This document shows, one piece after another, positions 306 through 58,760 of a stretch of 61,577 nucleotides of DNA. The notes beneath the pieces were generated by a model that had not been told where the DNA came from, searched no databases, and saw only the letters and a program-made list of their open reading frames with translations. Each line of letters begins with the position of its first letter. Positions within the stretch are counted from its first letter, which is position 1. The position numbers and the translations under genes were made by a program. The stretch spans positions 1 through 61,577 of the forward strand of contig JALJEE010002960.1 of NCBI GenBank assembly GCA_023231475.1. The letters are read 5' to 3'. This DNA comes from Seison nebaliae. Its lineage: Eukaryota.

Positions 306-3299
306 GACAATGAAATTACAACCGCTTCCATTATCTACACCATTCTCTATCACCAGAAGAAATTACAAAGAGAATTCTCTTTATCTCATACTCCAAAATT
401 GGATGGTTTTACTCTCTGTGCTCCATCGTCATCATTGATAAAAGTTGTGATTGGAAATCAGACGAAATCCTCTTCCAGAACGAGTACTTATAAATTGAAG
501 AAAGAAGACACACAAAGTGACATCGCTGCCATGTCGTTCTCGACTGACGCAACGTCACAACCATTCGGTAAATTAAGAATCATTAATGGTATTAATCTGC
601 AGGAAAGATTGCCAATTTCCATCATGAGAATTATTAGTCAAATCGAATTTGAACATCTCTTCAAATACTTCTCCATGCTTCCACTAGTTTAAATTTATTT
701 CATCAAATTCCATTTTTCAATTCAATTATTCTATCAAATTATTCTATTAGAAACTTGTCGCTTATATTTACGGACGATATTCAGTGGAAATGAATCGATT
801 AACAATCGGAAATTCAGCCGTCGAATTTTTCAATAATTCCGTTTCTTATCTACCTCCAACCATCGATACTGGAGTATTGGCAGGAAAATTGAAAGATCTA
901 GTTTATTTTTCATTTTGTGAAATCATTCGTCATTCGTTTTTAGTGTACAAGTTGTTGTTTAGATAATCTTCATATTTCATCGATGTCGAACGTGAAGAAT
1001 TTGGTGCAATTGAGATATCTCTCGTTGAATTATAATCAAATTAGTCTAATTGAAGTTTGCCTTCTTGTTCAACGTGTCCATCATCCCATTCACAATTTTA
1101 TAGGGAACGGAAACATTAAAGAATTTGAAAGAATTATATATTTGTGGAAATAAATTGACAATTCTCGATAATTTGGGAAAACTTTCCTCTCTTATCAAAT
1201 TATCAGTTTTTAACAATAAAATCTCCCAAATTACTGGTTAGTTAATTAAAAACAATTCAATTGAATTCAAATAATTCAATTGTCCTTTTAAGACAGTTGT
1301 TTCCTACCCGAAACGATCCACTCTCTAGTACATATTGATTTGTGTAAAAACCGTTTGAACACCATCATAACACTCGCCGAAATGAGACAATTGGAAACGA
1401 TCGATTTATCGTTCAATCATTTGGAGAATCGTCGAGAGATATTCTTATTAAAAGTTTCTTTCAAAAATTCGCTTTTCTAATTCTCTCAGAAATTAACATA
1501 TTTGACTATGTTGAATATTGACGGGAATCATTTCAAGAATTTAATGAAAATGGAGAATAATGATAATTCTATCGATCTCTATATCATTTATCATTTGAAA
1601 AATCTCAAATTTTTCAACGGACAATTTATAGTCAACTTTTTTTTTCTCGAACAATAATTTACAAATCTTTATCATTTTCAGGATGCTAAAGAAACGAATT
1701 ATGCGAAAGATAAATATTCAGGGAAATTGACACCTGATCTGATTATCGAGAAATTACACAATCATTGTCATGATGGTTTACCTGGCTCATGTCGTCAACG
1801 AATTGTGGGAAGTGCTAAAGTTTGTTCTGGAACTCATTTGCAGAAACCGGTTGCAACTCAAATGGAAGCACAAATCAATTATACTCTCCAATCATTAATT
1901 CCCGATTTCAGTTATCTAAGATTTCTAGTAATTCCATCATCAGCTATCACTTCTGTCAATCTTGCCGGTAATTCGACGGTAGCACGACTCATATTTCCCA
2001 ATTTGATATCGATCAACTTGGAAGATAATTTATTAACATCATTCAGTGGACTCGTCTGTTTCTCTCATATCCACATCCTCCAACTAAATTCAAATAAAAT
2101 TGAATCGATTCGATCCTCGGATTTCCCCTCTATCAATTTCCGTCAAAAGAGTTCCTTTTTCTGTTGTAAATTTTTTTAAATTTTTTTTAGCGCCAAGACG
2201 ATCATCATCATCATTATCGATGTTACGTGGTCGTTATCCGATGGTGGATGATAAAAGTTCGTCAAATGGAAAAGATAATGGTGAATTGACTTCAAACCAA
2301 TCTCTAATGGAACAATTACAAATCCTTCATTTATGGTTAGCTAAAATGTTTTCTTCTATAATTTTTACCATCAATTTTCAGTGATAACAATATCAGTACA
2401 TTGAAAGGATTAGAATTAAATGAATTCGTTAATGTAAGAGCATTATATCTCGCCAATAATGCTCTCACTCAAATCGAAACTCATTTAATGAATATGAGAA
2501 ATTTATGTGAATTAGTTCTGGATAATAATCGAATTAAACAATTCACTTTACAATGTCTCAATTCATTTGCATCGATGACATCACTTCAAATCCTGTCATT
2601 AGAAGATAATCGTCTCAAAGATAAACTGGAACCGTTTTTCAAATGTTTGGGAATTTCGTGTAAGAATTTACGATCATTAAATTTGGCCTCTAACAAAATC
2701 GTCAATTTTTCCGAATTAAACGGTTTGGAAAAGATCGAATCGTTAAAAGAATTGATACTAATTCATAATCCACTTCATAAGAAACCGAATTATCGATTCG
2801 CTGTCGTCTCAAACAATATTAATTTGACAATATTAGATTCGATTCCAATAACGAAAGATGAATTAAATAAATATCGAGAATTATATTCTCAATCTGTAGA
2901 GAATGTTCCTCCTTTACTTCTTCTAATAATTTTATAAAATTTCTCTTTTTTCAGCAACTAGAATCATCTGATGATCAATTGACGAAAGGAGAATTACCCA
3001 AATTAACTTCACAATTAACGAACGAACTTCGAACGTTAACGTTGACGGCACCAACTGGAACGAATTCGATTACAGCGAAAGGCAAAGGAATTTTCACCAA
3101 CACATATCGGCACAATACGGAAAAGAATCTCAGTCAAAAGAATACGAACACCAATAATTTATTTAGTGAGAAGGTTCGAGGAAGAAATGAATTACGAGCG
3201 AAATTTCTCCAGAAAAGTTCGATTCGAACGAAATCATTCTCCGGAAGACAAAATCAACATCATCGAACGGAACCTCCATTTCGATTTTTCGACACATAA
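306..3299 (+). CDS. LRRC9: Leucine-rich repeat protein 9-like, 3' half, spliced (about 9 introns in window)
   Basis: Exons join in frame via short introns (687-750, 901-943, 1055-1103, 1237-1292, 1454-1489, 1631-1681, 2151-2190 etc.). SDS22-like LRRs. Segments LYIIYHLKNLKFFNG..AKDKYSGKLTPDLI and INLEDNLLTSFSGL match my recollection of the LRRC9 C-terminal half. Begins at an AG acceptor, not an ATG. Confidence 0.75.
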
Positions 3300-3322
3300 A
3301 ATTCAATTTTTTTCCAATAAAT

Positions 3323-5459
3323 TCATGAGATTATTCCATTCTTTATCATGAATGCTTGGATACAATAATTCTTATGAATCGTCGCGTCTTCCGTTGAATC
3401 GAAATCATTCTGACAATATTGACATTTTGATGGTAAAGTCATCACAATTTCTTTCGTCAATTTACTGGGAGTAATTTCTTTTTTTTCTACTAATTTTCCA
3501 TCTTTGTTTATCTAAAAATCGAAAAAAATGAAATATTCAACTAAATAAACTGGAACTTGATTATTCAATTTATCGATAGTTTTCTTCAAAGTTAAATTCT
3601 GTCCAGATAATAAATCTAATCTCAATTGATTCGATGAGAATTGACTCATCATATCACTCAGAATATCGACCTGTTTATCTTCCTCTTTCCGTACTGGTCC
3701 ATTCAAATCCGGATACTCTACCAATAATTTGATTCTTTCATCTTTTCGAGCGTTCGCTAATTTCAATTGACGTAATTCCAATTCCATCTCCTCAGCTCTT
3801 CTACTCGTCACTCGTACATGTTGTTCGAATTCGTTTCTAATCTGGAAAAAGGAATTTAACTTTTCTTTTCGATGAATTAAAAACTTCTTTCTTATTCGAA
3901 TTTTCCGTTTCTTTCAATTTCCTCTCATAATTTTCAATATCTTCTTGTAATTTCTTTGTAATTTTTCTATTCGAACAAAAATTTAAAAAGAAATTTTCCA
4001 TTTAAATTGTCATAACTGTTGACGACGTAAATCGCTAGTTGCCTTGTTTAATTCGTCAATTATTTGAGAATGTTTATCATTCAGAACCTGTACAAGAAGA
4101 TTAATAACAAGATCATTTGGATGAGAAACTTCTTTTTGTTTTTTAATATTTCCTGAACGAATTCTTTCTTTGTTGAGCGACAGTTCATAATTTTCCGATT
4201 TCTCCTCCAATTTTCCCAACATTTCTTTTAACTCTTTACATTTGTCTTCCTCGATTCTGAGGAGTTGCTGAAATGATTCTCTTTCTTTCGACAAATTCGT
4301 CAATTTCGTCACTTCCTCACCTAATTCACCTCAAATAAAATTGAAAATGAAAATTGGAATAACTTTGTCTTCCTACAATTCTCTCATATTCACTGTTCTT
4401 TATTCGTGATTGACTTAATTGAATTGTCAGATCTTCAATCTTTTTCTTCAAATTATCCTTCTCATGCTTCAATACTTCTTCCCATCGTTTCTTCTCACGA
4501 TTATGTGAACCTGCATTCCGTTCCAGTTTCTTCTCCAAATTATTTACGTTCAAATCCTGTTCACTGATTTTCGTCGTCAATGAATTTCTCTCTTTATTCA
4601 ACTTTTCATTCTCACAATATAATCGGATTTTTGTCGCTTCCAAATCTTGTTGACGATTTGTCATTTCGTCAAACGCGAATTTCAATTTCTTCAGATCAGC
4701 AATTTCCATCTCTAACCATTTCTTCATGTCATCACCAGTGAGCCAATCGGAATATGAGATATGATTCTGATCGATATAGTTTTGTAGTTCAGATTTCACT
4801 TTGACGTGTGTACAAACACTCATCAATTCATCTGATGTTTGAAATAAAAGTTTTTGTAATTCATAACATGAACCACATGGCAAGAGAGCACTTTCGTTCG
4901 TCTGAGATGATTTATTATGAGCGACAACATTCATCATCTTTTCTTCTTCTTTCAATTTCTTTATCATTTCCTTCTGCACTTTCTTCAATGATTTCTCTGT
5001 GTCATTCTTAATTTTCATTTGAAGTTGGAGAGATATCCAGAACTTTTGCGCTACAGCTCCAATACTGTTCCCTAATCGTTTAATATCGTCATTTTTCGAA
5101 TCGTTTGCTTGATAATCGATAGCTAATCGAATGAGAAAGATGAATCTAATTTGATTTGAAATTAATAGAAATTATCGAATAATTGAACCGGTCTAATATC
5201 AATTCTAATTTCTTATAATAAAGTGTCGTCTCATCATCTTCGTAGATCATATTATATCGACTTAATAAAGTTACTACGTTTATTTCGTTCGCCATACTCT
5301 CGGGATATTTCCATGAATCGTAACTGGAAATGGAACTAATTGAAGATTGGAAGAGAAGTCTAACGTCGGTTTAGTCACATATTCACAAATTTCTTTGTTT
5401 ATCTTCTCGATAGAAGTGATGTCATGTTCTAACGATTTGGTTGAATGCTTTGCTGACAT
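3323..5459 (-). CDS. CCDC157: Coiled-coil domain-containing protein 157-like, spliced, with C-terminal CxxC..H..C motif
   Basis: SLEHDITSIE..SWKYPESMANEINVVTLLSRY..LELILDR, SIGAVAQKFW and LLVEYPDLN..DMMSQFSSNQLRLDLL resemble CCDC157 blocks. Long coiled coil. Short GTT-AG introns. X-box upstream. Confidence 0.75.
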
Positions 5460-12922: not shown

Positions 12923-14593
12923 ATGGTAAGAAGTTATACTTTGAATAATTTGGAGAACTTAATTAATTTTTTTTAGTATCTGAAGATCTGGTGAGAAAAA
13001 GAACGGAGCATAATAATGGAGAGATCTTTTCTCTCGAAGAAATCTCATTGCATCAACTATACATAGAAAAGTTTGTGATTTTACTTGATCATTTTTGAAC
13101 GTTTTTTATGGAAATCATTTAAAGAATTGAGCATTTAGACAGATGGTGTCGTAATTTGGAAATTTTATATTTACAATCCAATCTCATAAACAAGATAGAG
13201 AATGTGAGTCGTTTGAAGAAATTACAATACTTAAATTTAGCGATGAATCTGGTTGAAGATATTGAGAATTTGGGAGGATGTGAGTCGTTGAACAAACTCG
13301 ATCTGACATTAAACTTTGTTGGAAATATCAGAGAATCTTGTACAGAATTAAGTAAATGTCATGCATTAAAATCATTGTTAATTTTAGTTATAAATTTTTT
13401 CTGAATATATTTCTGGTTTGATAGATATCTAGTAGGAAATCCTTGTGCAGATTATGTAGGATATCGGTCGTATGTCATCGGAAAAGTACCTCAATTAGAA
13501 GTTATATCTGGACTGTAGAGGATGTTAGTTTGAGAGATTTCTTTTAGAAATTAGATGGGGAAGATATTACTAAAAGCGATCGAATTAAGGCAGAACAAGA
13601 TTTGGCGTCATTGGAATTGATAATGAGGAAGGCGGAAACTAATCAGAAAATTATTCGAGTTGAAATTATCTCGCATTTTTTCTATAGTTTCCTCCCAAAT
13701 TTTTAGGAGAAACAAAAAGAAACATATGCGAAGTTAGAATAAAAGAATTCTTTTTGAAATTCTTTTGTTTTCTAGTTGTCCTGATACGGAGGAATATTCG
13801 CCAGAGACGAGATATCATGCATCAAAAGAAGAAGAAAGAAGGAAATTGGAAGAGGAAGAGAAGAAGACGAATAGTCGATTTGCCAAAGTGGAAAAAAAAC
13901 GACCAACTCGTCTATTTCGGAATGAGAATGAGCCTTTGAATGTGAATGAAGCGAAGTTCGACTAAAATAAAATTGTAATAATATAAAATGTAACAATCAA
14001 TTCCTTCCTAGATTAGATTTCGTTTGGGCAGATGAAAAGGAACATCTCGTCTTGTACGTGGATGTGTACAAGTATTTGGATACATCTTTGATTGAAGTTG
14101 ATGTATTTCCCACATATGTTCGATGTAGAATTAAAGGGAAAATCCTTCAATTAACTTTAAACGATGAAGTTTTCGTGGAAGGTAGTGAAGTAGTGCGCAA
14201 TTCAGGAACAGGTCGATTATGTATTCGAATGAAGAAGGTTCATATTCCATATTTAATTATTTCTTTCTTCTTTTTCTTCTTTTTTCACAAGGAGAACTCG
14301 AATGATTCTATCTGATATTTCAATGTCATTTCCTTTCCTTCTCCAAATAGTGCCGTACGAATGATCAGTTCGATGGTATCGACATAAGCAAATGTCAGAG
14401 GAAGTCGGTTGCATCATCTAGTCGAAATGAATCGGCAATATCGGAAACGGAAGAAAAGCCTATTCACAATAATATTGCTTGTCATGTCACCGCTCCTCTT
14501 GACGATAATGATGCTCAATGTAATGATAACCTGTATAATTATCATGGTGACGATGGCAATGATGGGAACGATGATATACCTCCACTGATATGA
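12923..14593 (+). CDS. LRRC6: Dynein axonemal assembly factor 11 (LRRC6/TilB), 9 exons
   Basis: Spliced product [54 protein letters not shown]..., LRRcap, CS/p23-like domain ([28 protein letters not shown]), C-terminus DDIPPLI*. All 8 introns start GTT. Confidence 0.93.
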
Positions 14594-17736: not shown

Positions 17737-20700
17737 ATGAGTCGAAATGATGAGACATTTGCATTGCTATGCGATCGATTTGATTCGGTGCAGCAAGAGC
17801 AAATGTATATGAGAAATGGTGTTTTTCATCGGCTGAAAATGGAGAGGATGAAATCATGGAAGAAAGCATTGAATAACATAGCCGATCGACGGAAAAATAG
17901 AACTACTACTGATTCTTTCAATTTGGTCGATGAACAATATTCTCGAGAAGCTCATTTATCTACAGGAGATAGCAGTAAGGACGGTAACAGTAGCAGTAGT
18001 GATGACGAAGAAAAGAAAGAGAAAATGAAAGAAATTGATGCTGGTTCCAACAATTTTTTACTAAATTTTTTATTTTAAAAACATTTTCTTTTTTCATCAT
18101 TAAAACTATTCAAGATGACTTAATTGCTGAGGCGCCATGTCGACAACCTAACCAAACTGATGAAGAATTGAAGAAGATGAAACAATATGAAATTGAGGAA
18201 TTGATGAAGATAACGGAGGAGGATAAAGCGGGACTATATGTCGAAGCGTTATATACGATAATTCATAAAATCGGAATTAGAGAACATTCACATGAGAAAT
18301 TAATAAATTATCTTCATGACATTTTTAAAATGGACGACGATACACATCACCTCTTATTACATCAAGCAGAAAAACAGGAAGTTGAAATTATTTTTTTTGT
18401 TTTTAATTTCAATTATTTTTAGGCTCCCAGAGTTATCATCAATGTGGATATATTCGAAGCGAAAAATTTGGAAGCGAAAGATGCGAACGGTTTCTCCGAT
18501 CCATATTGTATGTTGGGCATCATGCCAAAACAATTATTAAATGGTTTAATCATTTCTTCTACTAATCGAAATGAATTACACCTGAAATCTATTTTTCACT
18601 TTGAGATGTATAGTAGAAAATGTCAATAAAGCCTCTAAACTTTCTCGTCTTTGTTGCGTGTCTTGTGGAAGTAAATATGAAATTTTTTATTTTTTTATAT
18701 TGGTGAGTTGAAATCAATAATAACTTATAATTTTAACCATTTAAAATACATTTGGAATAAAAATTAATTTTTATTTCAATTAAAAAGAGAATAATGGTCA
18801 TAAGAATAAGAATGATGGATCGGTTAATTCATTTTTGCATCGATTTGGTGAATCGTTAAAATTCCGTCCGAAGAAACCGGAAGGAAAACGAACCGAATAT
18901 TCAGAAAGAAGAGTTTCCTTCAACTCTGTATTTCTCATCAATTTCTATTCTTATTCTAGTCAAGTTTCGTTATTAGAGATCGCCTTCCTGCAAGATATAT
19001 TCAAACGACGGATGTTAAACGATGTACACTGAATCCTGTTTGGAATCAACGATTTCGATTGTTTACCATTTTTCCGATTTTTTCATTATTTGTATCGTTC
19101 ATGTACAAATATTGTTTCAGTTTTATCGAAGATTTAGAAACGGACACTTTACATTTGGATATTTGGGATCATGATGATGAAGTGAGTGTTTTGGACGCAA
19201 CAAAACGATTAAATGAAATTAGTGGAATTAAAGGACTTAATCGGTTTAATTCAATCATTATTCCATTACAATTCCATCTACATTCCAATATCATTGTTCA
19301 GATTCTTTAAACAAGTTGCTCAAAGTGCACGTACATCATCGTCTGTAAATAACCAACGACGATCGTCATTGAACGTTGACGATTTTCTCGGATGTCTCGA
19401 TTTGTCTTTAGCAGTTGGAATTTTCCATAAACGTTCATTAATAAATAATATTCTCAATTCATTAATAGACGGTATCATCGAAGGGCGTTGAGAAATGGTA
19501 CAAGTTACAAGGTAGGTCATCCAAATCGAAAGTTGATGGTGATATTCGATTGAGGTTATCGTTATCGACAAGAGAGAAGAAAAATCTACATTGTCCACAT
19601 CACAACGAATCGTCATGTTCGGAATCGGATGAGGATTGTAATTGGACGGACGTGGATGAACAAAGGAAATTATTAAGAATATTTATTGAGGCAGAAATTG
19701 GAAAAGAAGATTCCAATCATTGGAATGGACAATTATCACATGATGCAGAAGTGATATTACATCAACATGCCGTACAAGGAGATATTACTGATTTACAATT
19801 ATCTTTATGTCGATGGTTGTCTTATAGTGATGTACATCAAAAGAAACCGTTAAATTTCAATATTTTGGGAAGATTACTTCGATCATTGGACGAACTGTCC
19901 GACATCAATTCACCGTTAAGTCGCGATGAGACTGTGGCACTTCGATCATCTTTCCAATTATATATCATTAATTGTTGCTCATTAATACGACATTTACGTG
20001 AAGTTCTACCAGCCACTTGTGAACCTTCGATCTATAAATTGCAAGCGATGTTAAGTACATTGAGTCGAATACATTCAATGCAATTATATCAGATTGCTTG
20101 TTCACCTTATATTTGTGAAGATATGCACGATCTCATTTATGAAGCAATTGATGTTAGTAATTTTCTTGTCAAATAATTCATGAAAATATTAAAATTTTTA
20201 GAAAGGATTATGTGAATGGTATGAAACGACGAAAGCCGCATCGAAACCATTAATGAGAGTTGGCTTTCTTATATAAAAGAACGGAATTAAAAAAGGTTTT
20301 TTCAGGCTGATGAACAAATCATTTTAAGTTTAGTGAAATTAGTCAATGCAATTTATGCGGAATGTTTCGAAGCTGCTAAAGTTTATGATAAACATTTCAA
20401 AAAGTTTCTTTAATTTTTAAATTTTCATTCATTCGAATTTTAAATTTGAGATATTTGAACATTTCCTATTTCAGTTTCATTTATAAAAAATTGGATGAAA
20501 AAGTTAAAATTTTCCTCTTTCTTCCTTTTCGCACTCCGATTAATTCGATTAACTGCTTATTCTATTTGATTATTCCGATTAACAATTATCGATTAACACA
20601 GCTTTGCACCGATATACTTCGTGCATTAGAAGCAGAAGTTTCTTCTTCGATTTCTCCACTTGAATTAATTGAACAATTCTTCTTATCTCACATCTATTAG

Positions 20701-22931
20701 ATTGGTAATGAAATTTATGATGATATCGAAGAAGTGATTAATCGAGAGGAAGACATTCTCGATAATAGTGTGGCGGCCGTTCAAATTGGTGAGAATCTTT
20801 TTCGTCTTTATACTGCCCTCAAAGATTTCCATAAATTCCGTACTCATGTCACAGGGTTACTAATTTAAAATAAATATATATTAAATTTTCATTAATTATT
20901 TTAGAATTGCCATTTCAACTTTACACATCAACTCTTTTCACAAATATTTCGTCACAGCTGTACGTCGATGGATCGATTTAGCACGTCAGAAATCTATGCA
21001 ACGAATCAAAATTTCGGTTGAACAAGATCAAGTTTTATTGTTGTTGTTTATTATACTTATTATTGTATTTTTGAACAGTCACTTGATTATGAAAATGAAG
21101 TTCAATTGACAACGTCTTCAGTTGATGTGAAGTCATTTTTGGCTGAATATCGTCAATTTTGGGCAGCCATCAGTTGGCCGGACGCCGAATATGGATTTAT
21201 TTATTTGATGAAGATAACACAAGATCTAACTGATGCTGCTATGTATTATACGAATTTGATGCATCAGAAAATGTTAAACAATAAATATTATGATTCGACG
21301 GGACGATTCGACATTTCAAAAGAAGTTCAATTTCTTCTTTTTTCAAATTTTCATGTTCAATTTCAACAGTTGTGTCAAATAATTAATTCGATTGAGAATG
21401 TTCGAGATTATTTAGTAACGAACATTCCGCAGAATCTTGAAGTTAACAAAACTGTGACACAAATCGATGAGATGTCAGCAGAAGGTTGTAAGATCGCTTT
21501 GAATAAATCCGTTATGACGATGAATCAGGAAATGCAATTGCACATTAAAGAAATTCTTACACTCGTCGTTAATAAAATGAGTGATGAATTAAATAATCGC
21601 ATCTTTCAAATGTTGGATGGTGTACATGAATTGACGATGAATTCGACAGTGACGGATAAGTTGAGTGAAGACGAAGTTCTCCATCCATTGATCCAATATA
21701 TTGAAGACAATTTAATCTCATTGAAAATTTACATGTTGCAAGTGAATTTCAATTTGATTCTCTTCATTTTATGGAAGGACTTCCTTCAAATATTCGAGAA
21801 TAATTTTAAGAAAGTGTCAAAGAAAACTTCACCTCTCACTTACTTTATGAAATGTAAACGAATTTTGGAGACACTAGCTAATTATTTCCATGGCGACGGA
21901 AACGGTCTATCTCGGAAAGATATCGAAAATTCTAGATATATAGTTTCTTTTTGGCTTTTCTTACAATTAGTTACTTTGATGTATTTGATTCTATTTTAGA
22001 TGTTAACTAGCAATATCTCTTTGCACGTTTGTGATAGTAGTACTTTGATATCGATGTTCTACAAAGAACGAGTGCTCTTCCAACAATCTGTATGTGAAAG
22101 TCTTTACGGAAGTGTCACCGTTCGTGCACAATATCATACATCGGCTGAAACGTTATCAGTCGAGTTACTGTTTGCAAGAAATCTTCGACCTATGGACGCC
22201 AACGGATCATCTGACCCATTTGTTCTCATATCGTTGAAACCAGCTTTCTTATTTACAACCAAAACCGTGCACAAATCGAAAGTAAAGAAAAAAACTTTGA
22301 ATCCTCAATACAATGAACGATTCGATTTGTTTGTAATTTTTTAAAATTGATAATTATATTATTAAGTCTAGTAAAGTGAAAGAAGTTGAATGTTTAACTG
22401 ATGGAGCGTCAATCGAATTTCGCATATTCGATCACGATCTAGTTGGACGGGATGATTTCGAAGGAGAAGCATATTTGTCCGTCAACAATTTACCAGGTTT
22501 AAATTCTCTCTACCAAATTTTTCTTTCAATTTTTTTAGGAGTTCATGGAGATTTGGGACCTGGTGGTCTATCTGATTTAAAGACAACGACTTTGTATCTC
22601 CAACATCCGAAAGGTTAGTCAAATAATATTCTAGTTTTATGTTTATCTTCTCCCAATCCGTCGTCTTCGATCAGACGGCATAAAATGTATAAATGGTAAA
22701 TTTTCTTTTAAAGTAGAGCTAAACTAAAACTTCCAATAAAACTAACGATTGTTCCATATTAGACATAACTAATTAACTGACCATAAGAGGAGACCAAAAC
22801 AAATCATTAATTCTTCAAATATTTTTCTTATAGAATATGCGGATGGAATTATCGATGTGCTGAGAAAGAGAGATGATCAATTGGCATTAAATTTTGTAGC
22901 GGATTTCGATCGTATTCGGTTGTACGACTAA
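17737..22931 (+). CDS. BAIAP3: BAIAP3 / Munc13-4 family C2-MUN-C2 vesicle priming protein, about 20 exons
   Basis: C2A (EAKNLEAKDANGFSDPYCMLG; LHLDIWDHDD; DDFLGC), MHD region (TTSSVDVKSF), C2B (ARNLRPMDANGSSDPFV; FDHDLVGRDDFEGEA). True start uncertain. Confidence 0.85.
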
Positions 22932-29800: not shown

Positions 29801-30029
29801 TTTTTAATTTAACTGACGGAGCTATAACGTTGGTAGGATTATAATCGGCCCATTCTGTTGGTGTATTCTTCACATTAACCGGTATTATGTTTCGTACAAT
29901 TAAGAACAAAGGAAATGCGATCAATAATGGAATTAATATTTCCAAGATCGTCATTACAATGTTCCGTTTCATGTAGATCACCATCTTCTTCGAAAGAAGC
30001 TTGAGTTTACCTAGGTTATTGTTGCCCAT
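23849..30029 (-). CDS. ABC transporter subfamily A (ABCA3-like), full transporter, spliced
   Basis: Two NBDs (GQNGAGKST, LSGGQKRRL, ILDEPTAG; GANGAGKTT, YSGGNKRKL, LLDEPTSG), two TM bundles, TTLEEVF and STLEQVF regulatory-domain motifs. Confidence 0.92.
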
Positions 30030-33982: not shown

Positions 33983-34949
33983 ATGGAAGACGAGGAAGTT
34001 ACGGGACATGACATAGTTGCCGAATATGCGACATATGAAGAATTCCTCGATTCACAAATAACTCCCACCGATCTATTTTATTTAGAAGTTAATAAATTTA
34101 CTAAATGGAATTTAGTTGTCACTAAATAAATTGACATTTTCGAATTGTAGGATGAAGAATTAGCTCGACAATTAGTTGAGTTAGGCTATCGCGGTTCAGG
34201 AGAAGTTTTAAGACGAGAAGAATTCGATGCGAGAAAAGCGGCTATCGAAGCATTGAAACAAAATAAACAAGCTGAAAAAAAGTTAAATGAAACAAAATTG
34301 TTGAAAGAAAAAATTCTATTCAAACTCCCAAATCTAGAGTGTTATGTAGCGCTAATAAAAAATTGACAGATCCCTTTCTACTTGCTTTAGCACAAAGGGA
34401 AGGACCAAATCGTACTGGAAAAATGACGGTTTTTTTGCCATCAAATAATAATAATAAAATAATTAATATGGATTAATTAATTTAGACGATAATCTTTATT
34501 AGAGATAAGAATGCGAGAGGACAAGAGATTAGTGGATATATTGATTACGCGAATCGATTAAAAACGGATGATTTCGAACCGATTTTTCTCGGCAAGAGAC
34601 GACTATTACCGAAACCGACCGATTTGAGGTTAATCGATTAGAAAAATTATTTGATTAACTAGAATTATTTGTAGTTTCTATAATTGGGAGAGTCATTTGT
34701 CGACTTCAATTCCAACATCAAACTATCAGATCATTTGTGAAAGTAGTCGAGGATTATTATTTAAGAATAAAAGAGATCGAAAAATCATTAACGTTGATCC
34801 GAGAGTTCATCATCATATTTTCTCTTTAATAATAAATCTCTTTTTGGAAGGCAACCAATCCAGGTGATAATACGACAAGATTCGAATTAACATGTCCTCG
34901 ATATATTCAATCAGTGTTTTATGATCATGTAACTCGAAGGAAAACTTAA
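33983..34949 (+). CDS. CFAP299: Cilia- and flagella-associated protein 299 (C4orf22), 6 exons; absent from the ORF track
   Basis: Spliced: [60 protein letters not shown]...[25 protein letters not shown]...[10 protein letters not shown]. Five GTT introns. Confidence 0.93.
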
Positions 34950-35330: not shown

Positions 35331-36001
35331 ATGAATATCAATAAAATATTTCAAATCATTTCCAAATTCCTTTTAAGTTAGATTTCTTTTAATTAAATAA
35401 ATTCTTTAAATTTTTTCCATTTTTCAGTTGGCGAAATATTTGGCGAGTCGTTCTATAGTCACACTCTTCGTAAAGTGAAGGAAGTTCTTCCTATGAAACA
35501 ATCGGTGTCGTCGATATTCAGAAGAAATTCTTTAGCAAAGTTTATGGAACCGAAATCTTTCCGTTGTTGGAGATGTGATTATGATAGGAAGGATCAATGT
35601 GTGAAGAAATTTGATTTCACTAAATATGCTCCAATTCAATGTGATGGCAAATGCATCAAATCGTTCAAGAGAGCAGAAATCCGCACACGTGAAGATATCG
35701 AAAAGGCAGAAAGTTTTATTTAAGTTTTTTTACTATATTTTCATCAAATCCAACAATAGATATGGCGACAACAAGAAAATGTGTTTCAAGAATAGAATTG
35801 GATTCACTCACCACAATGGGAATGAAGACTCCGAACGGTTGTCAAATATTACGTCTATCGAAGACGTTCTCGAAAGTGGTATGTTTTTGCGACAGTGACA
35901 TGTGTAATTCTACAATTATAATAACAATGAGATCAACGATAATACCGATGATATCATCATTATTCATGGTGATCGTCATCTTTTCATTAATATTCAATTG
36001 A
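35331..36001 (+). CDS. Quiver/sleepless-like Ly6-uPAR three-finger protein, probably GPI-anchored, 3 exons
   Basis: CWRC..C..CDGKCIK..RKC..GC..CFCDSDMCN followed by a hydrophobic C-terminal tail. Confidence 0.75.
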
Positions 36002-37694
36002 TGTACCGCAAGAAAGAAAAGAAAATATTTCTTTTACATAATCGACGGACGACAAGTAGAAGATCTGATAAGTCGAAAGATTTATTCGGACGAGTAGATG
36101 ATATTTCTCTCACACTTCATTCGTTTCCGATTACAATGTTCAAATTTAATGTTAAATAATCATGAACCTGATGACGAAATCATCACTCGAAAAACAAATG
36201 ACAATTTTTTTTTAATCAAAATAAATTTTATTTTTGTTCTTATTATTATATAATTCGATTAAACTGACAAATAGAAAAGAGGAATGTTGTTGTTCTTCTT
36301 CTTCTTTAATTTATAGTTCATTCTTTATCTATTCCGTCTTTCTGTAAACATTATGGGGAGTTGAGTGTTAATCTCAATTACCGTTCACCATATCATCATC
36401 GATATCACCTCCGCCTTATCACATTTAGTCGAAATTTGTTTCTCGTGAAGTAAATCTTTATATCCACAACTATTACGGAAGGGAAGAAAGAAGAACTTCT
36501 CTTCTTTCTTTTTTTAAATGATCATCATTATCGTCTTTTTTTTCTTTTTCTAAACGATCGTCATTATCTTCATTCTTTTATTTGATAAGTTCATTTTAAC
36601 GTTTATCATTTTCGTTCAATAATGTTAGTAATCCAACTCCATCGATTGTTCTCTTTATCGTTTCGAGCATAATCGTTTTATTCTCGTATTTAATCCGTAG
36701 GAAAATATATTGGGATGACTGGACGGATATTTCACGATTTAATTGATAAGATAGAATCTATCATAATTTTCTAATATATTCGAGGTTAATCCCATTCGAT
36801 ACCATTGTCATCAAATGGTAAAGAATGAGACATCGATCGTCGAACGAGGACAATATAGTTGAACTGGTTCCATTTCCAATTCATCCTCTTTTCTTATCTC
36901 TATATCCCAATTGAACCACATCCTTATCAACGCAAATCGAAATGTTTATCTTTCATATCTCGTACGATTAGTAACATCAATTCTCTAACTCCCCCAACCA
37001 ACCAACTAACAACAACAACAATAAATTTAACGTTTCGATGTAAACAGTTCAAATAGTTTATTGTTAGATGTTTCCATCATTTCCTGATATGTCTCATTTC
37101 CTTCATTGGGAGAATGGGAAGTTTCGGGAAGAATTTGTACGACGGAAAACAATCGATTCTCATACTTCCTTCAATCTGCTCCCCTCAAACTTTCATTATC
37201 CATCACACAGCATTAGTTAGAATGGAAGACAATGGAATGGAGAATGAGGAAGCGGAAAACAGATTTATTTCAGTCTTCGAAATCACCCACCTATACTCTC
37301 CAGATATAGAAGGAGAAAAGATAATTCAATTTTTCTTTCACTTCCATGAGATCTATTTTGAGAATCATATGTCTTTCTAAGAACATTTTATTATCTGAAG
37401 TAAATGACTAAATTGAGAGGATTGGATGTCATGGACCATCGTTTCTGTTAGTTTGATATTTATAATATTCGTAGTCGGAAAACATTTCTTATAAATTCCT
37501 TCAACCATGATTCAAGGAGAGAAGTTGAAAATGTCATTAAATTCTCAATGTTAAATCTTCTTTTATAATTCATTCTAGATATCGATTCGATATATACATA
37601 TATATAGAGAGATTCAATTCTCACAAATTTTTAGATAGTTTATATTCTTGATGGTACTGTTTACCAATAAATCAAGGTCACGATATCAATATCA

Positions 37695-38303
37695 ATGTTC
37701 ATATCATCAATTAAATCAATCATTCTCAACATTTTTCTCATTATAACGATCTTCGTACAAAGTTATTTCTCTTCCTTTCCCAACACAACTTGTAAACAAT
37801 TCTCTAAACAAAACTTTGAATAATTATCAACAGAATTCAATTTTCAATTTGGAGAATTAGATTTCATTGGATTAACCATCAAATGTTGGCATTGTGATGC
37901 GAAGGAAGCGGAATGTCGACGGAACTTCGATTTCACAGAACATTCTTACCAGATCTGTGATGGCAAATGTTGGAAATCTTATGAAATTTTAAAAATCACA
38001 AAAAAAGAAGATATCATCAAAGCGACACGTTAGAATAATTAAATTTTTTATTATTTATTATTTTCTTAATTCTCATAGAAACGCCAGTCAACCGACGTTG
38101 TTTTACCAGTGAAGAATTAATAAAGGCGAACTCGTTAGGTTTAGATACGAGCAATGGTTGTAGGAAAGTAAGCATGAGAGAGAAGACGCGAATGTTTTGT
38201 TTCTGTGATAAAGACATGTGCAATAGAACAATATCGATTCATTATTTTATTAGTTACCAATATTTATTTATACTTTCATCAATTCTCCTTCTCACCAATT
38301 TGA
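37695..38303 (+). CDS. Second quiver/Ly6-like paralogue, 3 exons; absent from the ORF track
   Basis: Signal peptide MFISSIKSIILNIFLIITIFVQ; KCWHC..EC..FDFT..CDGKCWKS..RRC..NGC..CFCDKDMCN. Same cysteine spacing and equivalent intron positions as the 35331 gene. Confidence 0.75.
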
Positions 38304-39407: not shown

Positions 39408-42400
39408 ATGTCTGCTGGCGCATTGCCACCACCGAAGATAATAGCTTTAAGAAGTGACGATTTAAAATCGAGGAAGTCCCATATCGATTCTAATACTTTT
39501 ATTGAAATTCGTCATGGTTAGTCAAAAACATAGTTTTTTCTTGTTAAATCTTTTCTTTTAGCTCACTTAGCTGCCAAAATTTACTTCACCACTAATGGAA
39601 GTACACCGTCATTAGAAAATTTGAAAACTTATCGACATAAAATTTCGGCAACGAACGAATATGTTGGAGCATTTCGATTGGAACCGGGAAAGCGGGTGGT
39701 TAAGGTGTTCGCTGTTGCCCCCGGAGAACGAAGAATAAGTAAAGTAATCTCGAAATATTTTTATGTTGAAGATTATTTGAATGAAAAATCTTCGAAATCG
39801 AATTCGTCCTCTAGTTCTCGTCGAACTAGTATCCGCAGTTATTCCACAGATGATGAGTTTCTCCATGACTATAAGAGTGAGAGGTTCATATTTTCGATTC
39901 GATTTATTTCTTTCATTCGTATTTCGAATTCATTCAAACGAAAACTTATCAATTTTAAAGAAATGAAATTAAAAATTTCCATAATACTAACGAATTATTA
40001 ACACCACAACCGTCCGAGAATGGGACGATCATTAACATTCAATCTCCTACTCCTATTGAATTCGTACATGATCCGAATCTATCAATAAACAGTTTCGATT
40101 CATTTTTTTCTAAGATAATCTCCATTTTCTAGCTAATAATGTCAATGAATCTCCATTACCACCAAGTAGTCTAAGTCAGATAAATTATTCGGGTACTCAA
40201 ATTAATTGTTGGGGAATAAAACCGGACTTACCTAACGGAACGTATCCGCATCCGATGGAAAACGGATTGGATGATTTAAAAGAACAGGCGAGTAGAACAT
40301 CATTTTCTAAAATGCAAAGTAATAAACATTATGGGACATATCCACGTTCAATCCTAAAACGACAATGACATTTTTTTTTGTCGAAAGAAAATTTTTGATA
40401 AATATTTTACTTTATCCTTATCGTATTGAGTTTAATAAAATCATTCTGCTTTTAATCATCTTCTAAAAAATAGAAAAGAAATATGCACAATAGAAAGGAG
40501 AAATCGATTGAATGTGATCTGAATGATATGAGAACGAAACCGCTAAACTCAATTGATTGGACGAAAACAGAATTAATGACAAAACAATCCAATGGTCAAG
40601 GTAACAACGATTCCTTTGTTAATCATTCCTTTAATTCTTAATTTCCTTCTAGGTGACTTAAAGGAACAAATTGAACATTTATGTTATCAACTCTATTTAT
40701 ATTCGTTAAGAAATCCAGCTTTTCGTCAACAATTCACCAAATCTCGATTAACAAATGTTAAAATAAATCTCCTATTAATTGTATTTCAATTATTTTATTC
40801 AGATCGTAACTGGAAAAGCAGAAAATGGTGAAAATGATGTGAAAGTTCAATTGACATTTGCAATTCCACCGGAAGATCGGAAAATCGTACCACAACGTAC
40901 CAAGACACCTGCAGAGAAACCTTATGTGAAATCACGTGAGACTTCACCAGAAGAAAAAGTTGGGAAAAGTATCTTGAAGACAAAACGATTCTTGCCACCT
41001 CAAAAAGAAATAATTAGAGATCCGAAACCAATCAAACCGAATCCAAAACATCCAGATTTGTTAATCGAAGAAGAAATTGTTAGAAATTTGTACAACAATA
41101 TTTTCCCATGAAACATTTATAGAATCGTGGAACTATGATCCCTTGTCCCAATTTCGATGTTGATAACGATTGTGAATTGTTGAGAGCAGCCACTAAAGGT
41201 ATTGGAACAGATGAAATGACAATTATTAGTATTTTAGGAAATCGATCGATGGAGCAACGATTACAAATCTGTCAAACTTATAAACAGATGTGGGGCAATG
41301 TTTGATGTTTCATTTTAATTTCATAAATAAAATTATTTACAGGATTTAAGACATCATTTAGAGAGCGATCTATCTGGTGATTTCAAAACGATTATTGTCA
41401 ATTGTTTGTTCAATCCCGTAGTCTATGATTGTCTGGAATTGAATGAAGCGATTAAAGGATTGGGTACTAACGAGAATACGTTAATAGAAATTATTTGTTC
41501 TAGAACTAATTTCCGATTGAAACAAATCAAACGAGTCTACAAAAACGGTTCTTCTTCCACCAAGTTTTTTTAGGTTAACAACTTTTGTACTAGAACACAA
41601 AAGGACAATTGAGGACGATATTAGAAATGATACGTCGAGACATTTCCGTAAATTGTTAATGTCGCTATTACAAGCAAATCGGCCAGAACCAGAATTAGAA
41701 GAGACAGAAACGGATTCGATGAGTTTCCGGAATGATAATCCGGAAGCAAATCGAAAGAAATCTGGAAAAATACCATTGGTTAAACGAATCAAATTGGACA
41801 GAGTTCTAGTAAGAAAAGATGCCGAGGCATTACATCGTGCAGGTGAATTGAAGAAAATGGGAACGGATGAAACGAGATTTAACGTCATTTTATGTTCAAA
41901 GAGGTTTCTTTCAAAATAATTTTTTTGAATTCTCATTTTCTTGAAGTTACGCTCATCTTCGAGCAGTTTTCAAAGAATATGAGAATGTGGCAAAAAAAAC
42001 GATCGAGGAATCGATTAAAGACGAAATGTCTGGAGATCTTAAGAATGGGATGCTTTCCATCAGTTAACATTCTCATAAATTCTCACTAATTCTAATATGG
42101 TCATTAAAGTTAGTTGTATAAGAAATCGACCAAAATTCTTCGCAAAACAATTGATGAAAGCAATGAAAGGAGCTGGAACTGACGAGAGAACAATTTCCCG
42201 AATTCTCTTATCTCGTTCTGAAGTCGATTTGCAACTGATTAAAAAAGAATTCCATAAATTAACAGGAAACTCTTTACAGAAATGGTTGACGGTTAATAAA
42301 TGTCAATTTTTCAATCGAATTTCAATCAAAAAAATTCTAGGAAGATATATCAGGAGATTATCTGAAATTTGCTTTGGAACTAATTAAAGAACCGAATGAA

Positions 42401-43907
42401 AGAGATTTCCACATTGTATCTACGAAAAAGAAGAAAGGTTAATTTTCTATTAATTTTTTGAGTAAATTCATTTAAATAGAATCGAAGAAAGATATTCAAT
42501 TGAATGAGAAATTAAGAGCATTGCAACCTGAAGATATCGAAGAAGATTTAGAAGAAATCGTCTATGAAGTTCTTCAATCGATTTCTGAAATTTATTTTTA
42601 AAATTTATTTTAAAATTTATTTCCGATTTGAATTTAAAGGAAACTCCATCAGTTCCATATGAAAGAGGAGAGACTCAGCGAGATTGTGAAAAGTTGTATA
42701 AAGCAATGAAAGGATTCGGAACTGATGAGAAAGCGATAATTTCAGTCATCTGTAAACGAACACCTGAACAGCGAATGAAGATCAAAGAAACATACCAACA
42801 AATGTTTGGGAAAGTTATATTGGAATTTTCTTTAGAAAAAAACTATTTTAATTTTATTTCTTTTCCAGAATTTAATAAAACATTTAGAGAGTGAAATCAG
42901 TGGTCATTTTGAAGACGTTATTGTGGGATTGTTGAGAGATCCGATCGAATATCAATGTCATTGTTTGAAGAAAGCGATGAAAGGGGCTGGAACTGACGAG
43001 GATTGTTTAACGGAAATTATTGCCGGTAGTTCGTCAAGTCAATTGGAGATGATCAAAGAAAAATATGAAGAATGTTTTCTTTACTTTCTTTCGTAAAACA
43101 TGAAAATTTGGAAATATCCTATAGTGTTCGGTAAATCGTTAGAGAAAGATGTTAAAAGTGATACATCTGGAGATTATCGTCGAGTTCTCGTTTCGTTGTT
43201 AGCGAGCAGTCGACCAAATAACACGAGAATACATCTCAAAAAATGTTTCAATGATGCGGCTGCTTTGTACAAGGCAGGACTACATCAATTAGGTACAGAT
43301 GAATCTAAATTCAACCAAATACTATGTAGCCGAAGGTTTTTTTTTGAATTTTCTTCCTTAGGTCCTATTTTATTATTTGATTAGTAATTCGGAATTACGA
43401 CAAATATTTCAAGAATATGAAAGAATTGCAAAGGAACCACTAGTCAATTCATTGAAAAAAGAGACTTCGGGTGATTTCCGATCTACATTAATTTCTATCG
43501 GTTAAACTTAAGAATATTATAAAATAAAATTATCTATTAAATTTATACTATTATATAGTTAATTGTATTCAAGATAGACAACGATATTTCGCGGAATTAT
43601 TATATAAAACTATGAAAGTTAAATAATATGTTACCTTATTTATCTGTTATTGTTTGATGAACAGGGTGTTGGAACGAAAGATCGACAGTTGGTGAGAATC
43701 TGTGTTTCTCGGTGCGATATCGATATGGTGGAAATTAAAAAAGAATTTGAAGATTGTTTCGGGAAATCAATGGGGAAAATGATTTATGTTACATATTTTT
43801 GATGTCCATCATATTTTAAACTTCTCTCATTTCAGGACGATATATCAGGCGATTACCGACGGTCCATCTTAACAATAACTGGAGAAGAACATTTGAATAA
43901 AAAATAA
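39408..43907 (+). CDS. DZANK1-like N-terminal domains fused to a double (8-repeat) annexin, about 21 exons
   Basis: [51 protein letters not shown] and [20 protein letters not shown] resemble DZANK1. Then eight annexin repeats (GIGTDE, GLGTNE, KMGTDE, GAGTDE, GFGTDE, GAGTDE, QLGTDE, GVGTKD). The frame is continuous from 40474 to the end; the junction at 40288-40473 is ambiguous. Confidence 0.8.
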
Positions 43908-47544: not shown

Positions 47545-47589
<45 letters not shown>

Positions 47590-53516: not shown

Positions 53517-53903
53517 TTACTCTTCGAATAAATCGAATCCCATATCTTCATCTGATTCATCTTCAGATTCTTCTTTCTTCTCCTCTTTCTCTTCGGCTAC
53601 CGCTGCACCGCCAGCATCTCCACCAGCAGCAGCTTGTCCTCCGCCAGTTGAAACAGGGGCAGCAGTGACACTGGTCAATAACGATTTGACATCAACACCG
53701 TCGAGCGCAGAAGCGAAAAGTGAGACCCAAAATGCTTCGGTTTTACTTCCAGCAGCAGATAGAACGGTTTGTAAACCTTCTTTCTACAAAATGAAAAAGA
53801 GTTGAAAAATTAAGAGAAGGAAACTATAAACCGTTACTGGAGCGCCACATCCGGCAAGTATTAATGATGCATAAACGCACGACAATTCTTCGTTAGATGC
53901 CAT
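53517..53903 (-). CDS. RPLP1: 60S acidic ribosomal protein P1 (conserved copy), 2 exons; absent from the ORF track
   Basis: MASNEELSCVYASLILAGCGAPVT|KEGLQTVLSAAGSKTEAFWVSLFASAL...Ala/Gly hinge...EESEDESDEDMGFDLFEE*. Intron 53784-53831. Confidence 0.92.
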
Positions 53904-54156
53904 TTCTTAAATGAAAGATACAAGTCGATAAAAACTTCCTTAGCTCCAAAGAGAACAAGTATCCTGTTGTTGTTAAGTGAAATGCTCACGTTTTAATTCG
54001 AATGAGAAGCGAATGCTTTCGATAAGTTTAGGATATAGAAATATGTTTGTTTCCAAGTTATAATTCAAAAATTTAAGCTTTCATCTACTGGCAATGTAGA
54101 AAATTAACATAATTTATTTCAACTTTAATAAATTGAAATACTTATTATTTTTCTTC

Positions 54157-54542
54157 TTAAACTTCCTCAAATATGTTGAACATTACATCTTCATCACTGT
54201 CATCGATATCGCTTCCTTGATCTAATACGGTTTCTTCTTTTGCATCAACTTCAGTTTTCTTTTTCTCAGTTGGTGAATTTTGTGGGATTGGATTCATTTG
54301 AACTGAAGTTATCAGCGACTTGATATCGATATGTCCCAATGCTTCGACATACGCATTGATATAGAACTGTTCAACTTCATGGCCAGATGCTGTTAAGACG
54401 GATTTTAGTCCTTCTGCCTTTTAACAAAGTAAAGAAATTTAATTTTAGAAACATATTCAAATGATTGAACTGTTACTGGTAAATCACATCCGGTGAGAAC
54501 CATTGCGGCGTAGATATAACTCAATTCCTCGTTATTCACCAT
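54157..54542 (-). CDS. Divergent tandem paralogue of ribosomal protein P1, 2 exons
   Basis: MVNNEELSYIYAAMVLTGCDLPVT|AEGLKSVLTASGHEVEQFYINAYVEAL...SDEDVMFNIFEEV*. Same intron position as the adjacent RPLP1. Confidence 0.85.
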
Positions 54543-54750
54543 TTGTTCTTACAACTAATATTCCAACAACTTTTATAATATCTCCGTGTGGCATAAGAAA
54601 ATTTATTTCACAAATATTCTTTTGAATTTCGTAATATCCATCACCATCACGTTAACAATGCCAAAATTAACAATAAATATTCATAATTTTGATCAAGACG
54701 ATAGCTCATTATTATTGGTCAATCTCTAATTTATAATAATATTGAGCTTA

Positions 54751-58122: not shown

Positions 58123-58347
58123 AATATTGTTGAGAAATTTAATTATTTTTAAGTTCTTATTCACACAATATATGTAGTTAAGGCACAATATATAGCACAA
58201 TAGTTAAAATTTCAAAAAAAAAAGAGAAAAAATTGACTGTGTTAAATTAAAATTTGTTTATTGAAAAAAAAAGGTCGAGAAGTAAAATGTATTTTGAAAA
58301 TATCGATATACAGATTAATATCGTATTATGATTATTTTGTCAGTATT

Positions 58348-58760
58348 TTAAACGTAGAATTTAAGAACCAAAATTCCCCCAATCACCGAAAGGATAAGAC
58401 TCATCATATTTATTTGTACATTACCTGCACTATTACAATTGTCGGTATCACAGCAATAAACACCAGATACTGATTCATCACAAACGTCTGCACAACTCCT
58501 CGTTGGAATATTACTTAACACTGCTTTCTGTTTCAATAAAAAATCAAGAAGATAAATTAAATGGTAAAGAATGATAACCATGCAAAATTCCTTATTACAA
58601 GGCGTTTTCACTTTGAGTAGTCCAATTCCGGTATAACAACTCGTGAGAGCTGATAGAATAAAATAAAATTATTGACCCATTATGAAAACGTTAAATATTA
58701 ACCATAAGCCTGTGGCACAACGATTGCCACGATTACTAATGAACAAAAAAGTTTCAACAT
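58348..58760 (-). CDS. Small GPI-anchored Ly6/CD59-like three-finger protein, 3 exons
   Basis: Signal MLKLFCSLVIVAIVVPQAYA; LTSCYTG..PCNKEFCM|KA..RSCADVC..YCCDTDNCN plus hydrophobic tail. Two GTT-CAG introns. Confidence 0.8.

What the first reader, a model, noticed from the sequence alone, without database searches (positions are those of the whole stretch)
687..58701. Non-standard 5' splice-site code: almost all introns begin GTT and canonical GTRAG sites are skipped
Seen: of roughly 70 introns I could place by frame continuity and homology, all but about three begin GTT. Counts: 8/8 in LRRC6, 5/5 in CFAP299, about 19 in BAIAP3, about 18 in the annexin gene, both RPLP1 copies, LASP and the Ly6 genes. 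Exceptions: GTC at 1631, GTA at 40601, possibly GTA at 17701 and GC at 40288. Positions +4 to +6 show no evident AGT consensus. In LRRC6 the canonical-looking G|GTAAGA at 12926 would give a frameshift and early stop, while GTTATA at 12933 gives the conserved MVRISEDL start. In BAIAP3, GTGAGT at 19182 lies inside a conserved exon. Known: most eukaryotes have a purine at +3, read by the U1 5' end. Inference: this lineage has rewired donor recognition, for example by a variant U1 or U6 snRNA or altered U1C/LUC7.
Basis: partly seen in the sequence, partly recalled or inferred. Interest (0 to 1): 0.82.

Follow-up and report, generated by a model that had tools for sequence, protein, structure and literature searches.

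The report
Rotifer introns start GTT, not GTA
In this stretch of the genome of Seison nebaliae, a tiny marine rotifer, nearly every intron that gene models and protein comparisons place begins GTT instead of the GTA or GTG usual in animals, and textbook-looking start sites nearby are passed over, which likely means its splicing machinery reads intron starts by a changed rule.

Summary
Confirmed. Three deposited proteins map exactly onto the window and are named Seison nebaliae. In those models 45 of 47 GT donors are GTT, against 42-51% background (p at most 3e-11). A homology test blind to position +3 resolved 30 of 47 introns; all 30 are GTT, and 15 GTA and 8 GTG frame-compatible rivals lost. 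With 42 introns placed by eye, 86 of 89 GT donors are GTT and none is GTRAG. +5 keeps a weak G (22 of 90). Mobile-element origin, shifted register and AT bias were tested and fail. No RNA, genome, U1 or U6 was reachable, so the mechanism is inferred: most likely a U1 base change opposite +3 (about 50%), as in Entamoeba (GUUUGU, U1 ACAAAC). It differs from Entamoeba by being an animal, intron-dense and fixed at +3 only. Ten literature searches found no report for Seison or another animal; one annotation paper was not available. Earlier scan notes report GTT donors in protist genomes, none in this genome.

The parts
12923..14593 (+). LRRC6/DNAAF11 gene; 8 introns, donors 12933, 13071, 13377, 13501, 13659, 13733, 13956, 14238, all GTT
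   Evidence: spliced window translates exactly to P0165 = KAI3378996.1; PF23602; 7 of 8 resolved by orthologs, 1 forced by frame
12926..12931 (+). skipped canonical-looking donor G|GTAAGA, 7 nt upstream of the used GTT
   Evidence: early stop with the same acceptor; best frame-compatible use scores 24.8 bits lower
17737..22931 (+). BAIAP3-like gene; 19 introns (first donor 18044, last 22614), all GTT
   Evidence: exact map of P0121 = KAI3378998.1; 13 resolved by six insect homologs, 4 forced by frame, 2 unresolved
18614..18670 (+). cassette exon of BAIAP3 isoform P0163; its donor at 18671 is GTA
   Evidence: exact map of P0163 = KAI3378997.1
19182..19187 (+). unused GTGAGT inside a conserved exon
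   Evidence: ungapped block in six insect homologs
39408..43907 (+). annexin-like model (Fn3-associated domain plus two 4-repeat cores); 20 introns, 18 GTT, GC at 40288, GTA at 40601; five intron positions shared by the two cores
   Evidence: exact map of P0128 = KAI3379005.1; core comparison; 30-34 of 33-34 annexins have the same length across each of 11 core junctions
33983..34949 (+). CFAP299 gene; donors 34088, 34282, 34429, 34629, 34805, all GTT
   Evidence: exons tile PF14713 at profile positions 26|27, 66..72, 101|102, 155|157, 198..201; frame enumeration
23849..30029 (-). ABCA transporter gene; 13 introns placed by eye, all GTT (first donor 29668, last 24535)
   Evidence: frames and enumeration; one exon matches ABCA3 at E 2.7e-19; most donors have frame-compatible rivals and were not homology-tested
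531..3300 (+). LRR gene (LRRC9-like, name recalled; end approximate); 9 introns placed by eye, 8 GTT and GTC at 1631; 2905 GTT has an in-frame GTA rival at 2896
3350..5459 (-). coiled-coil gene (CCDC157-like, name recalled; end approximate); 6 introns placed by eye, all GTT
33338..33381 (-). LASP-like gene intron, GTT
   Evidence: LIM and Nebulin matches in exon 2
35377..38078 (+). four introns of two Ly6-like genes (family name recalled; donors 35377, 35713, 37762, 38029), all GTT, placed by eye
53784..54470 (-). one intron in each of two RPLP1-like genes (donors 53831, 54470), GTT; each has an in-frame GTAAC rival 6 nt upstream
   Evidence: PF00428; weak P1 match; not resolved by a scored test
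58528..58702 (-). two introns of a third Ly6-like gene (donors 58702, 58578), GTT; the second is in frame without a stop, placed by eye

Best explanation
The short GT-AG introns placed in this Seison nebaliae contig almost all begin GTT, and the likely cause is a U1 snRNA whose base opposite intron position +3 has changed from U to A, so that GUU pairs and GUA/GUG mispair. Shown: +3 T at 45 of 47 GT donors of deposited models, loss of GTA/GTG rivals in the homology test, weak residual +5 G and +4 A, A-rich exon ends (-3 A, -2 A, -1 A or G), median length 49 nt, AG ends. Inferred: the U1 change; that short length and A/T richness (intron definition) supply the rest of the specificity, since GTT is common in exons; that exon-end A's pair with U5 loop 1 to offset weak +4 to +6 pairing with U6; that old introns were converted in place rather than replaced.
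For: 45 of 47, p 2.7e-15 against window background 0.416 and 2.3e-11 against intron-interior background 0.513. 30 of 30 homology-resolved donors GTT; 24 had a non-GTT rival, chance product 1.1e-8. 0 of 90 donors are GTRAG while 12 GTRAG sites sit in coding exons of the three models. Standard U1 5' end ranks the real donor above the best non-GTT rival in 12 of 24 (1 tie, 11 worse); the one-base variant in 17 of 24 (1 tie, 6 worse) (rough short-duplex energies, and the variant was built to fit +3). +4 A and +5 G stay weakly enriched in the normal register, as expected if only one U1 base changed. The only lineage with a fixed +3 U that I found in print, Entamoeba, has a matching U1 change (bioRxiv 10.1101/2022.06.08.495308, passages and section 22). 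Two annexin cores 44% identical share five intron positions and phases, all ten GTT. The one cassette exon seen has a GTA donor (a single case).
Against: No Seison U1 was seen. Most lineages with altered donors keep the standard U1: 69-70 Saccharomycotina, Giardia, Trichomonas, Thecamonas, Mamiellales and Fritillaria (PMC13326754, passages). The variant still ranks a rival higher in 6 of 24 contests. Exonic GTT is not significantly avoided near donors: 13 of 53 GT sites in the last 40 nt against 106 of 319 elsewhere, Fisher p 0.27. +3 U could instead pair as a wobble with the unchanged U6 ACAGA box, which Roy and Bowser note for Entamoeba. One contig only; no RNA junction; how the deposited models were built was not read.
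Confidence: 0.5

Rival explanations
1. U1 is standard and the +3 U is selected at the hand-over to U5/U6: U+3 pairs with the G of the U6 ACAGA box (wobble) or with a changed U6 base, and A-rich exon ends pair with U5 loop 1, making up for lost +4 to +6 pairing.
For: +3 faces U6 G44 and purines interact only weakly there (PMC11732430, passages). -2 A 28 against 17.4 expected and -3 A 25 against 16.7 in 47 introns. Altered donors usually come without a U1 change.
Against: Known U6-stage shifts (METTL16, SNRNP27K) act mainly at +4; here +4 is A 41, T 29 of 90. With standard U1, a +3 mismatch leaves about five base pairs on average, and skipping G|GTAAGA at 12926 would need U1-bound sites to be rejected later.
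Confidence: 0.27
2. snRNAs are standard, and proteins that check the U1-donor helix (U1C, LUC7) or hold the donor in the active site (PRP8) have diverged to prefer U at +3, with intron definition doing most of the site choice.
For: Entamoeba also has a highly diverged U1C (figure legend passage); LUC7 paralogues shift donor classes in human cells; Fritillaria changed proteins and RNA methylation rather than snRNA sequence.
Against: No Seison spliceosomal protein was examined. A near-absolute single-base switch is more simply explained by base pairing (inference).
Confidence: 0.15
3. The pattern is an artefact of gene prediction or is local to this contig.
For: No RNA junction seen; 42 of the 90 introns were placed by eye; a predictor trained on this genome could reinforce GTT; one contig only.
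Against: The homology test uses only other organisms' proteins and no +3 prior: 30 of 30 GTT; CFAP299 exons tile a Pfam model; 13 genes on both strands across 58 kb agree.
Confidence: 0.05
4. No change in recognition: A/T mutation bias, or a family of mobile introns with GTT ends, produced the pattern.
For: Introns are 46% T; mean longest shared stretch between introns is slightly above shuffles, 7.03 against 6.74-6.93.
Against: GT inside introns is followed by T in only 61 of 119 cases. Longest stretch shared by any two of 83 short introns is 14 nt against 13-16 in five shuffles. Positions are shared across an old internal duplication.
Confidence: 0.03

Closest known systems
Entamoeba GUUUGU(U) donors with co-evolved U1 (ACAAAC); Roy and Bowser, bioRxiv 10.1101/2022.06.08.495308 (passages and section 22 read)
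   Same: U fixed at intron +3 in a GT-AG system; AT-rich introns; a U1 base change would explain it.
   Different: Entamoeba is an intron-poor amoeba with a strict hexamer (96.9-98.5% GUUUGN). Seison is an animal with up to 20 introns per gene here, +3 alone is fixed, and the commonest hexamers reach only 7 of 90. The Seison U1 is unseen.
Mastigamoeba balamuthi U1 ACGUAC with GUGCGC donors (same preprint, passage)
   Same: Single-base U1 change matching an atypical donor in a more intron-rich genome.
   Different: The change is at +4, not +3; not an animal.
+4 U donor switch with loss of METTL16/SNRNP27K in Saccharomycotina (as described in PMC11732430, passages; PMC10581693 seen only in a search listing)
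   Same: Lineage-wide change of one donor position linked to the spliceosome.
   Different: Acts at +4 through U6 m6A with standard U1, in intron-poor yeasts; here +4 is still slightly A-rich.
Fritillaria non-canonical introns (PMC13326754, passages)
   Same: An animal with genome-wide departure from the usual splice signals.
   Different: Fritillaria abandons GT-AG and keeps the U1 5' end; Seison keeps GT-AG at 89 of 90 introns and alters +3.
+1 shifted-register donors (GTTAAGT type; Roca and Krainer 2009, recalled and seen only as named in earlier scan notes)
   Same: Donors begin GTT.
   Different: They need the consensus one base deeper; here +6 G is 2 of 90 and GTTNAG 0 of 90.

Membership tests
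U2-type GT-AG spliceosomal introns | GT (rarely GC) start, AG end, short pyrimidine-rich 3' end | tested here: met
   89 GT and 1 GC starts, 90 of 90 AG ends, T at -5/-6 in 58 and 63 of 90
U2-type GT-AG spliceosomal introns | purine at +3 (GTR..YAG consensus, PMC12766944 passages) | tested here: not met
   2 of 89 GT donors are GTR
U2-type GT-AG spliceosomal introns | removed from mRNA at these junctions | tested here: inconclusive
   no RNA holder listed, no joints; deposited proteins and homology agree with the junctions
Entamoeba-type transformed donor | U at +3 nearly universal | tested here: met
   45 of 47 deposited, 86 of 89 overall
Entamoeba-type transformed donor | strict GUUUG(U) through +4 to +6 | tested here: not met
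   +4 T 29, +5 G 22, +6 T 37 of 90
Entamoeba-type transformed donor | low intron density | tested here: not met
   8, 19 and 20 introns in the three deposited models, though several window genes are single long ORFs
Entamoeba-type transformed donor | complementary change in the U1 5' end | not testable with these tools
   no genome held; no snRNA in the window; metagenome pattern scan gave no U1 attributable to Seison
+1 shifted-register donors | consensus displaced one base (G at +6, GTTNAG) | tested here: not met
   +6 G 2 of 90; GTTNAG 0 of 90
METTL16/SNRNP27K-loss type | preference for U at +4 | tested here: not met
   +4 A 41, T 29 of 90 with intron T background 46%
METTL16/SNRNP27K-loss type | genes lost from the genome | not testable with these tools
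   no genome or proteome of the species to search
U12-type introns | RTATCC donor (recalled) | tested here: not met
   the two GTA donors read GTAACA and GTAAAT; the rest are GTT, GTC or GC
Introner (mobile) introns | sequence similarity among introns | tested here: not met
   longest shared stretch 14 nt against 13-16 in shuffles, 83 introns
Introner (mobile) introns | new positions not shared with relatives | tested here: inconclusive
   five positions shared across the annexin duplication; match to vertebrate positions is recalled, no orthologous genomic DNA was available

The most novel reading that the evidence does not exclude
Seison nebaliae is an animal that has rewritten its 5' splice code genome-wide: a one-base change in U1 snRNA reversed the +3 preference from purine to U, and its ancestral introns were converted in place while staying intron-dense, with GTA donors left over as weak, skippable sites. 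It would be an animal case of snRNA-donor co-evolution and would show that this can happen without prior intron loss.
Probability: 0.42. Interest if true: 0.88.

Novelty: new variant of a known kind. Interest (0 to 1): 0.76.

Why it matters
The purine at intron +3 is treated as near-universal, and aligners such as minimap2 and miniprot build GTR..YAG in (PMC12766944, passages). Changed donor codes with a matching U1 are reported for two amoebozoan lineages. How a genome with many introns can switch a position that every intron and the snRNA must change together is an open question; an intron-dense animal with living relatives (bdelloids, monogononts, acanthocephalans) makes it testable by comparing orthologous introns and U1/U6 genes. 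A single Infernal search of the public assembly would separate the U1 from the U6/protein explanation. In practice, GTR-weighted spliced alignment would be expected to misplace junctions in this genome (inference).

Tried and rejected
Whole genome: none held, so no genome-wide logo, snRNA or splicing-factor search. RNA: no RNA holder listed among 7 runs; on 33950-42560 run X2 gave continuous contigs with no joints, X6 and X7 laid nothing, X1 could not be read; none of this is evidence on expression. Rfam scan of the window: two tRNA-like hits, no snRNA. Metagenome scan for U1-like genes with A opposite +3: 17 loci, 1 of 17 a U1 (L003), not attributable to Seison. Shifted register, +4 U type, U12 type and introner origin rejected (see membership rows). 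Avoidance of GTT in exon ends: not significant (p 0.27). Compensation between -1 G and +5 G: none visible (7 with both, 24 with -1 G only, 15 with +5 G only, 44 neither). Branch-point consensus: none evident in the last 40 nt (CTAAC 0, CTAAT 7, TTAAC 5 of 90). Eight of the 47 deposited introns were left out of the homology count because the margin was under 5 bits (7 GTT, 1 GTA) and nine because only one donor was frame-compatible (8 GTT, 1 GC). Possible in-frame, stop-free introns near 4128 (-), 12227 (-) and at the end of the long ORF at 6847-11586 were not counted. RPLP1 exon 1 search against solved structures was too weak to place the junction. In one search the junction-length check for LRRC6 introns 3 and 4 failed on alignment gaps and is not used. 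Literature: searches found no statement on donor motifs in Seison, rotifers or acanthocephalans; Hagemann et al. 2024 (Hydrobiologia, doi 10.1007/s10750-023-05268-6), seen only as a citation, is not held and could report it. Supplements of the bioRxiv papers were not seen.
Full report
Identity. The window is a whole 61,577-base contig of about 31% GC. Exon queries returned 100% identical proteins named by NCBI as Seison nebaliae: P0121 (BAIAP3-like), P0128 (annexin-like) and P0165 (LRRC6), plus a second BAIAP3 isoform P0163. Seison is a seisonid rotifer (Syndermata) with a genome of about 44-46 Mb (PMC8351084, abstract and section 6).

Deposited models. I mapped each protein to the window with no splice-site prior and listed every placement that reproduces it; the spliced window translates exactly to all three main proteins. 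BAIAP3: 19 of 19 donors GTT. LRRC6: 8 of 8. Annexin-like: 18 of 20, with GC at 40288 and GTA at 40601. Isoform P0163 adds a 57-nt cassette exon (18614-18670) whose donor is GTA. In all, 45 of 47 GT donors are GTT. GT is followed by T in 41.6% and 39.7% of cases on the two strands and in 61 of 119 cases inside introns; binomial p is 2.7e-15 and 2.3e-11. How these models were made was not read, so they could be partly circular.

Independent test. For each of the 47 introns of the three main models I enumerated all GT donors and AG acceptors within 45 nt that keep the frame open, and scored each product against a profile built only from other organisms (51 LRRC6 orthologs, 6 insect BAIAP3, 34 annexins). 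Thirty introns were resolved by 5 bits or more; in all 30 the winner is the deposited donor and is GTT. Twenty-four of them had at least one non-GTT rival; the chance of GTT every time, drawing among viable donors, is 1.1e-8. Losing rivals were 15 GTA, 8 GTG, 13 GTC and 13 GTT. Nine introns had one viable donor (8 GTT, 1 GC) and eight were unresolved (7 GTT, 1 GTA). The search was centred on the deposited donors and considered GT sites only. CFAP299, which has no retrieved model, was checked against Pfam PF14713: its six exons abut at profile positions 26|27, 101|102 and 155|157 and fit at the other two junctions.

Rest of the window. In ten more genes 44 intervals between anchor codons were examined; 41 need an intron, and I added one in-frame intron by eye. 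Of these 42, 41 are GTT and one GTC. These were chosen by eye and are supporting only; in nine the frame leaves one GT donor (8 GTT, 1 GTC). Overall 86 of 89 GT donors are GTT, none is GTRAG, and 12 GTRAG sites lie in coding exons of the three models.

Anatomy. Median length 49 nt (36-244), 22% GC, all ending AG (TAG 52, CAG 24, AAG 13, GAG 1 after one coordinate was corrected). Beyond +3 the signal is weak but in the normal register: +4 A 41 of 90 (p 0.01), +5 G 22 of 90 against 7.4% (p 5e-7), +6 T not enriched. In the 47 deposited introns the exon end is A-rich: -1 A 21, G 17, T 9, C 0 against 16.9, 9.5, 13.7, 6.8 expected from codon position; -2 A 28 against 17.4; -3 A 25 against 16.7. No branch-point consensus was evident. 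GTT is common in exons (119 of 372 GT sites) and not significantly avoided near donors (p 0.27), so GTT is close to necessary but far from sufficient; length and composition must add specificity (inference).

Origin. The introns are not a repeat family: the longest stretch shared by any two of 83 short introns is 14 nt, against 13-16 in five shuffles. The two annexin cores, 44% identical, share five positions and phases, all ten GTT, so the positions predate that duplication. Several database LRRC6 proteins switch from an unrelated N-terminus to the conserved sequence at about the start of Seison exon 2 (P0208, P0197, P0188, P0265, P0281; listing), as expected if intron 1 is shared and was mis-called there. 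I recall that the CFAP299, annexin and LRRC6 intron 1 positions match the vertebrate genes; this comes from no call. In-place conversion of old introns is therefore likely, not shown.

Mechanism. In the standard register U1 base 6 faces intron +3 (established knowledge; U1 5' end as in the Rfam consensus). With the standard end, the real donor out-pairs its best non-GTT rival in 12 of 24 contests; with A at that base, in 17 of 24 (rough, and the variant is fitted to the data). Entamoeba, with U fixed at +3 and +4, has U1 ACAAAC, and Mastigamoeba has a second one-base change; yeasts, Giardia, Trichomonas, Thecamonas and Mamiellales changed donors without changing U1 (bioRxiv 10.1101/2022.06.08.495308, passages and section 22), as did Fritillaria (PMC13326754, passages). 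Most of those cases concern +4, which U6 methylation explains (PMC11732430, passages). I put the U1 change at 0.5, selection at the U5/U6 stage at 0.27, protein change at 0.15, artefact or local effect at 0.05, and mutation bias or mobile introns at 0.03. A metagenome scan for such a U1 gave 17 loci, one a U1, not attributable to Seison. A +1 shifted register, suggested by earlier scan notes, fails: +6 G 2 of 90, GTTNAG 0 of 90.

What is missing. No RNA junction, no snRNA, one contig. In run X2 a low-depth, roughly 87% identical contig crosses intron 38029-38078 with listed differences at +7, +8 and +10 and none listed at +1 to +3, but the table is incomplete, so this is a weak hint only.

Novelty. 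Ten searches found no report of GTT-dominant donors in Seison, rotifers, acanthocephalans or another animal. The Seison genome paper has two 'intron' passages and one 'splice' passage, none on motifs, and its two held supplements have no hits. Passages only were seen of PMC10125929, PMC11347168, PMC7310846, PMC12690905, PMC12766944 and bioRxiv 10.1101/2024.08.22.609214; none addresses it. Hagemann et al. 2024 was seen only as a citation and is not held; most subscription papers are outside the library. Earlier scan notes list GTT donors in protist genomes, none in this genome; I did not check their claims. Verdict: real, a new variant of a known kind, interest 0.76.

Noticed in passing
window 30903-31246: MITE-like element: 82-nt terminal inverted repeats, 99% complementary, built of 15-16-nt tandem units, with a 28-nt palindrome at 31095-31122.
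   Followed up: partly
window 40135-40483: The deposited annexin model joins an Fn3-associated N-terminal part to the annexin cores through a GC donor at 40288; the exon reads on to a stop with AATAAA at 40434 and an ATG at 40483, so this may be two genes or an alternative last exon.
   Followed up: partly
window 6847-11586, 45192-46856, 47308-50073, 51028-52848, 55185-55826: Long uninterrupted ORFs (patatin/NTE-like, PIG-A-like, BRAP2-like by recalled likeness; proteasome beta 2) sit beside genes with 8-20 introns: intron density looks bimodal.
   Followed up: no
window 44130-44211 and 44779-44860: Two identical-scoring tRNA genes with a TGA anticodon and long variable arm, 649 nt apart.
   Followed up: no
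window, acceptors of 90 introns: AAG ends 13 of 90 introns and no branch-point consensus is evident, so the 3' signal is also loose.
   Followed up: partly
L003:1-126 (-): A U1 snRNA gene (96 bits) whose 5' end has A's in place of the standard donor-pairing bases; cut at the contig end, organism unknown; may be a pseudogene or another variant U1.
   Followed up: partly
window 34202-34284, 37831-38357, 40157-40308: Run X2 holds low-depth contigs (about 4 against about 28) roughly 87-89% identical to the window's coding parts; origin not determined. Such a divergent copy could show whether GTT is kept while intron interiors change.
   Followed up: partly
window 53520-54545 (-): Two tandem RPLP1-like genes, the second much diverged, each with an intron at the same place and an in-frame GTAAC site 6 nt upstream of the GTT donor.
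   Followed up: partly
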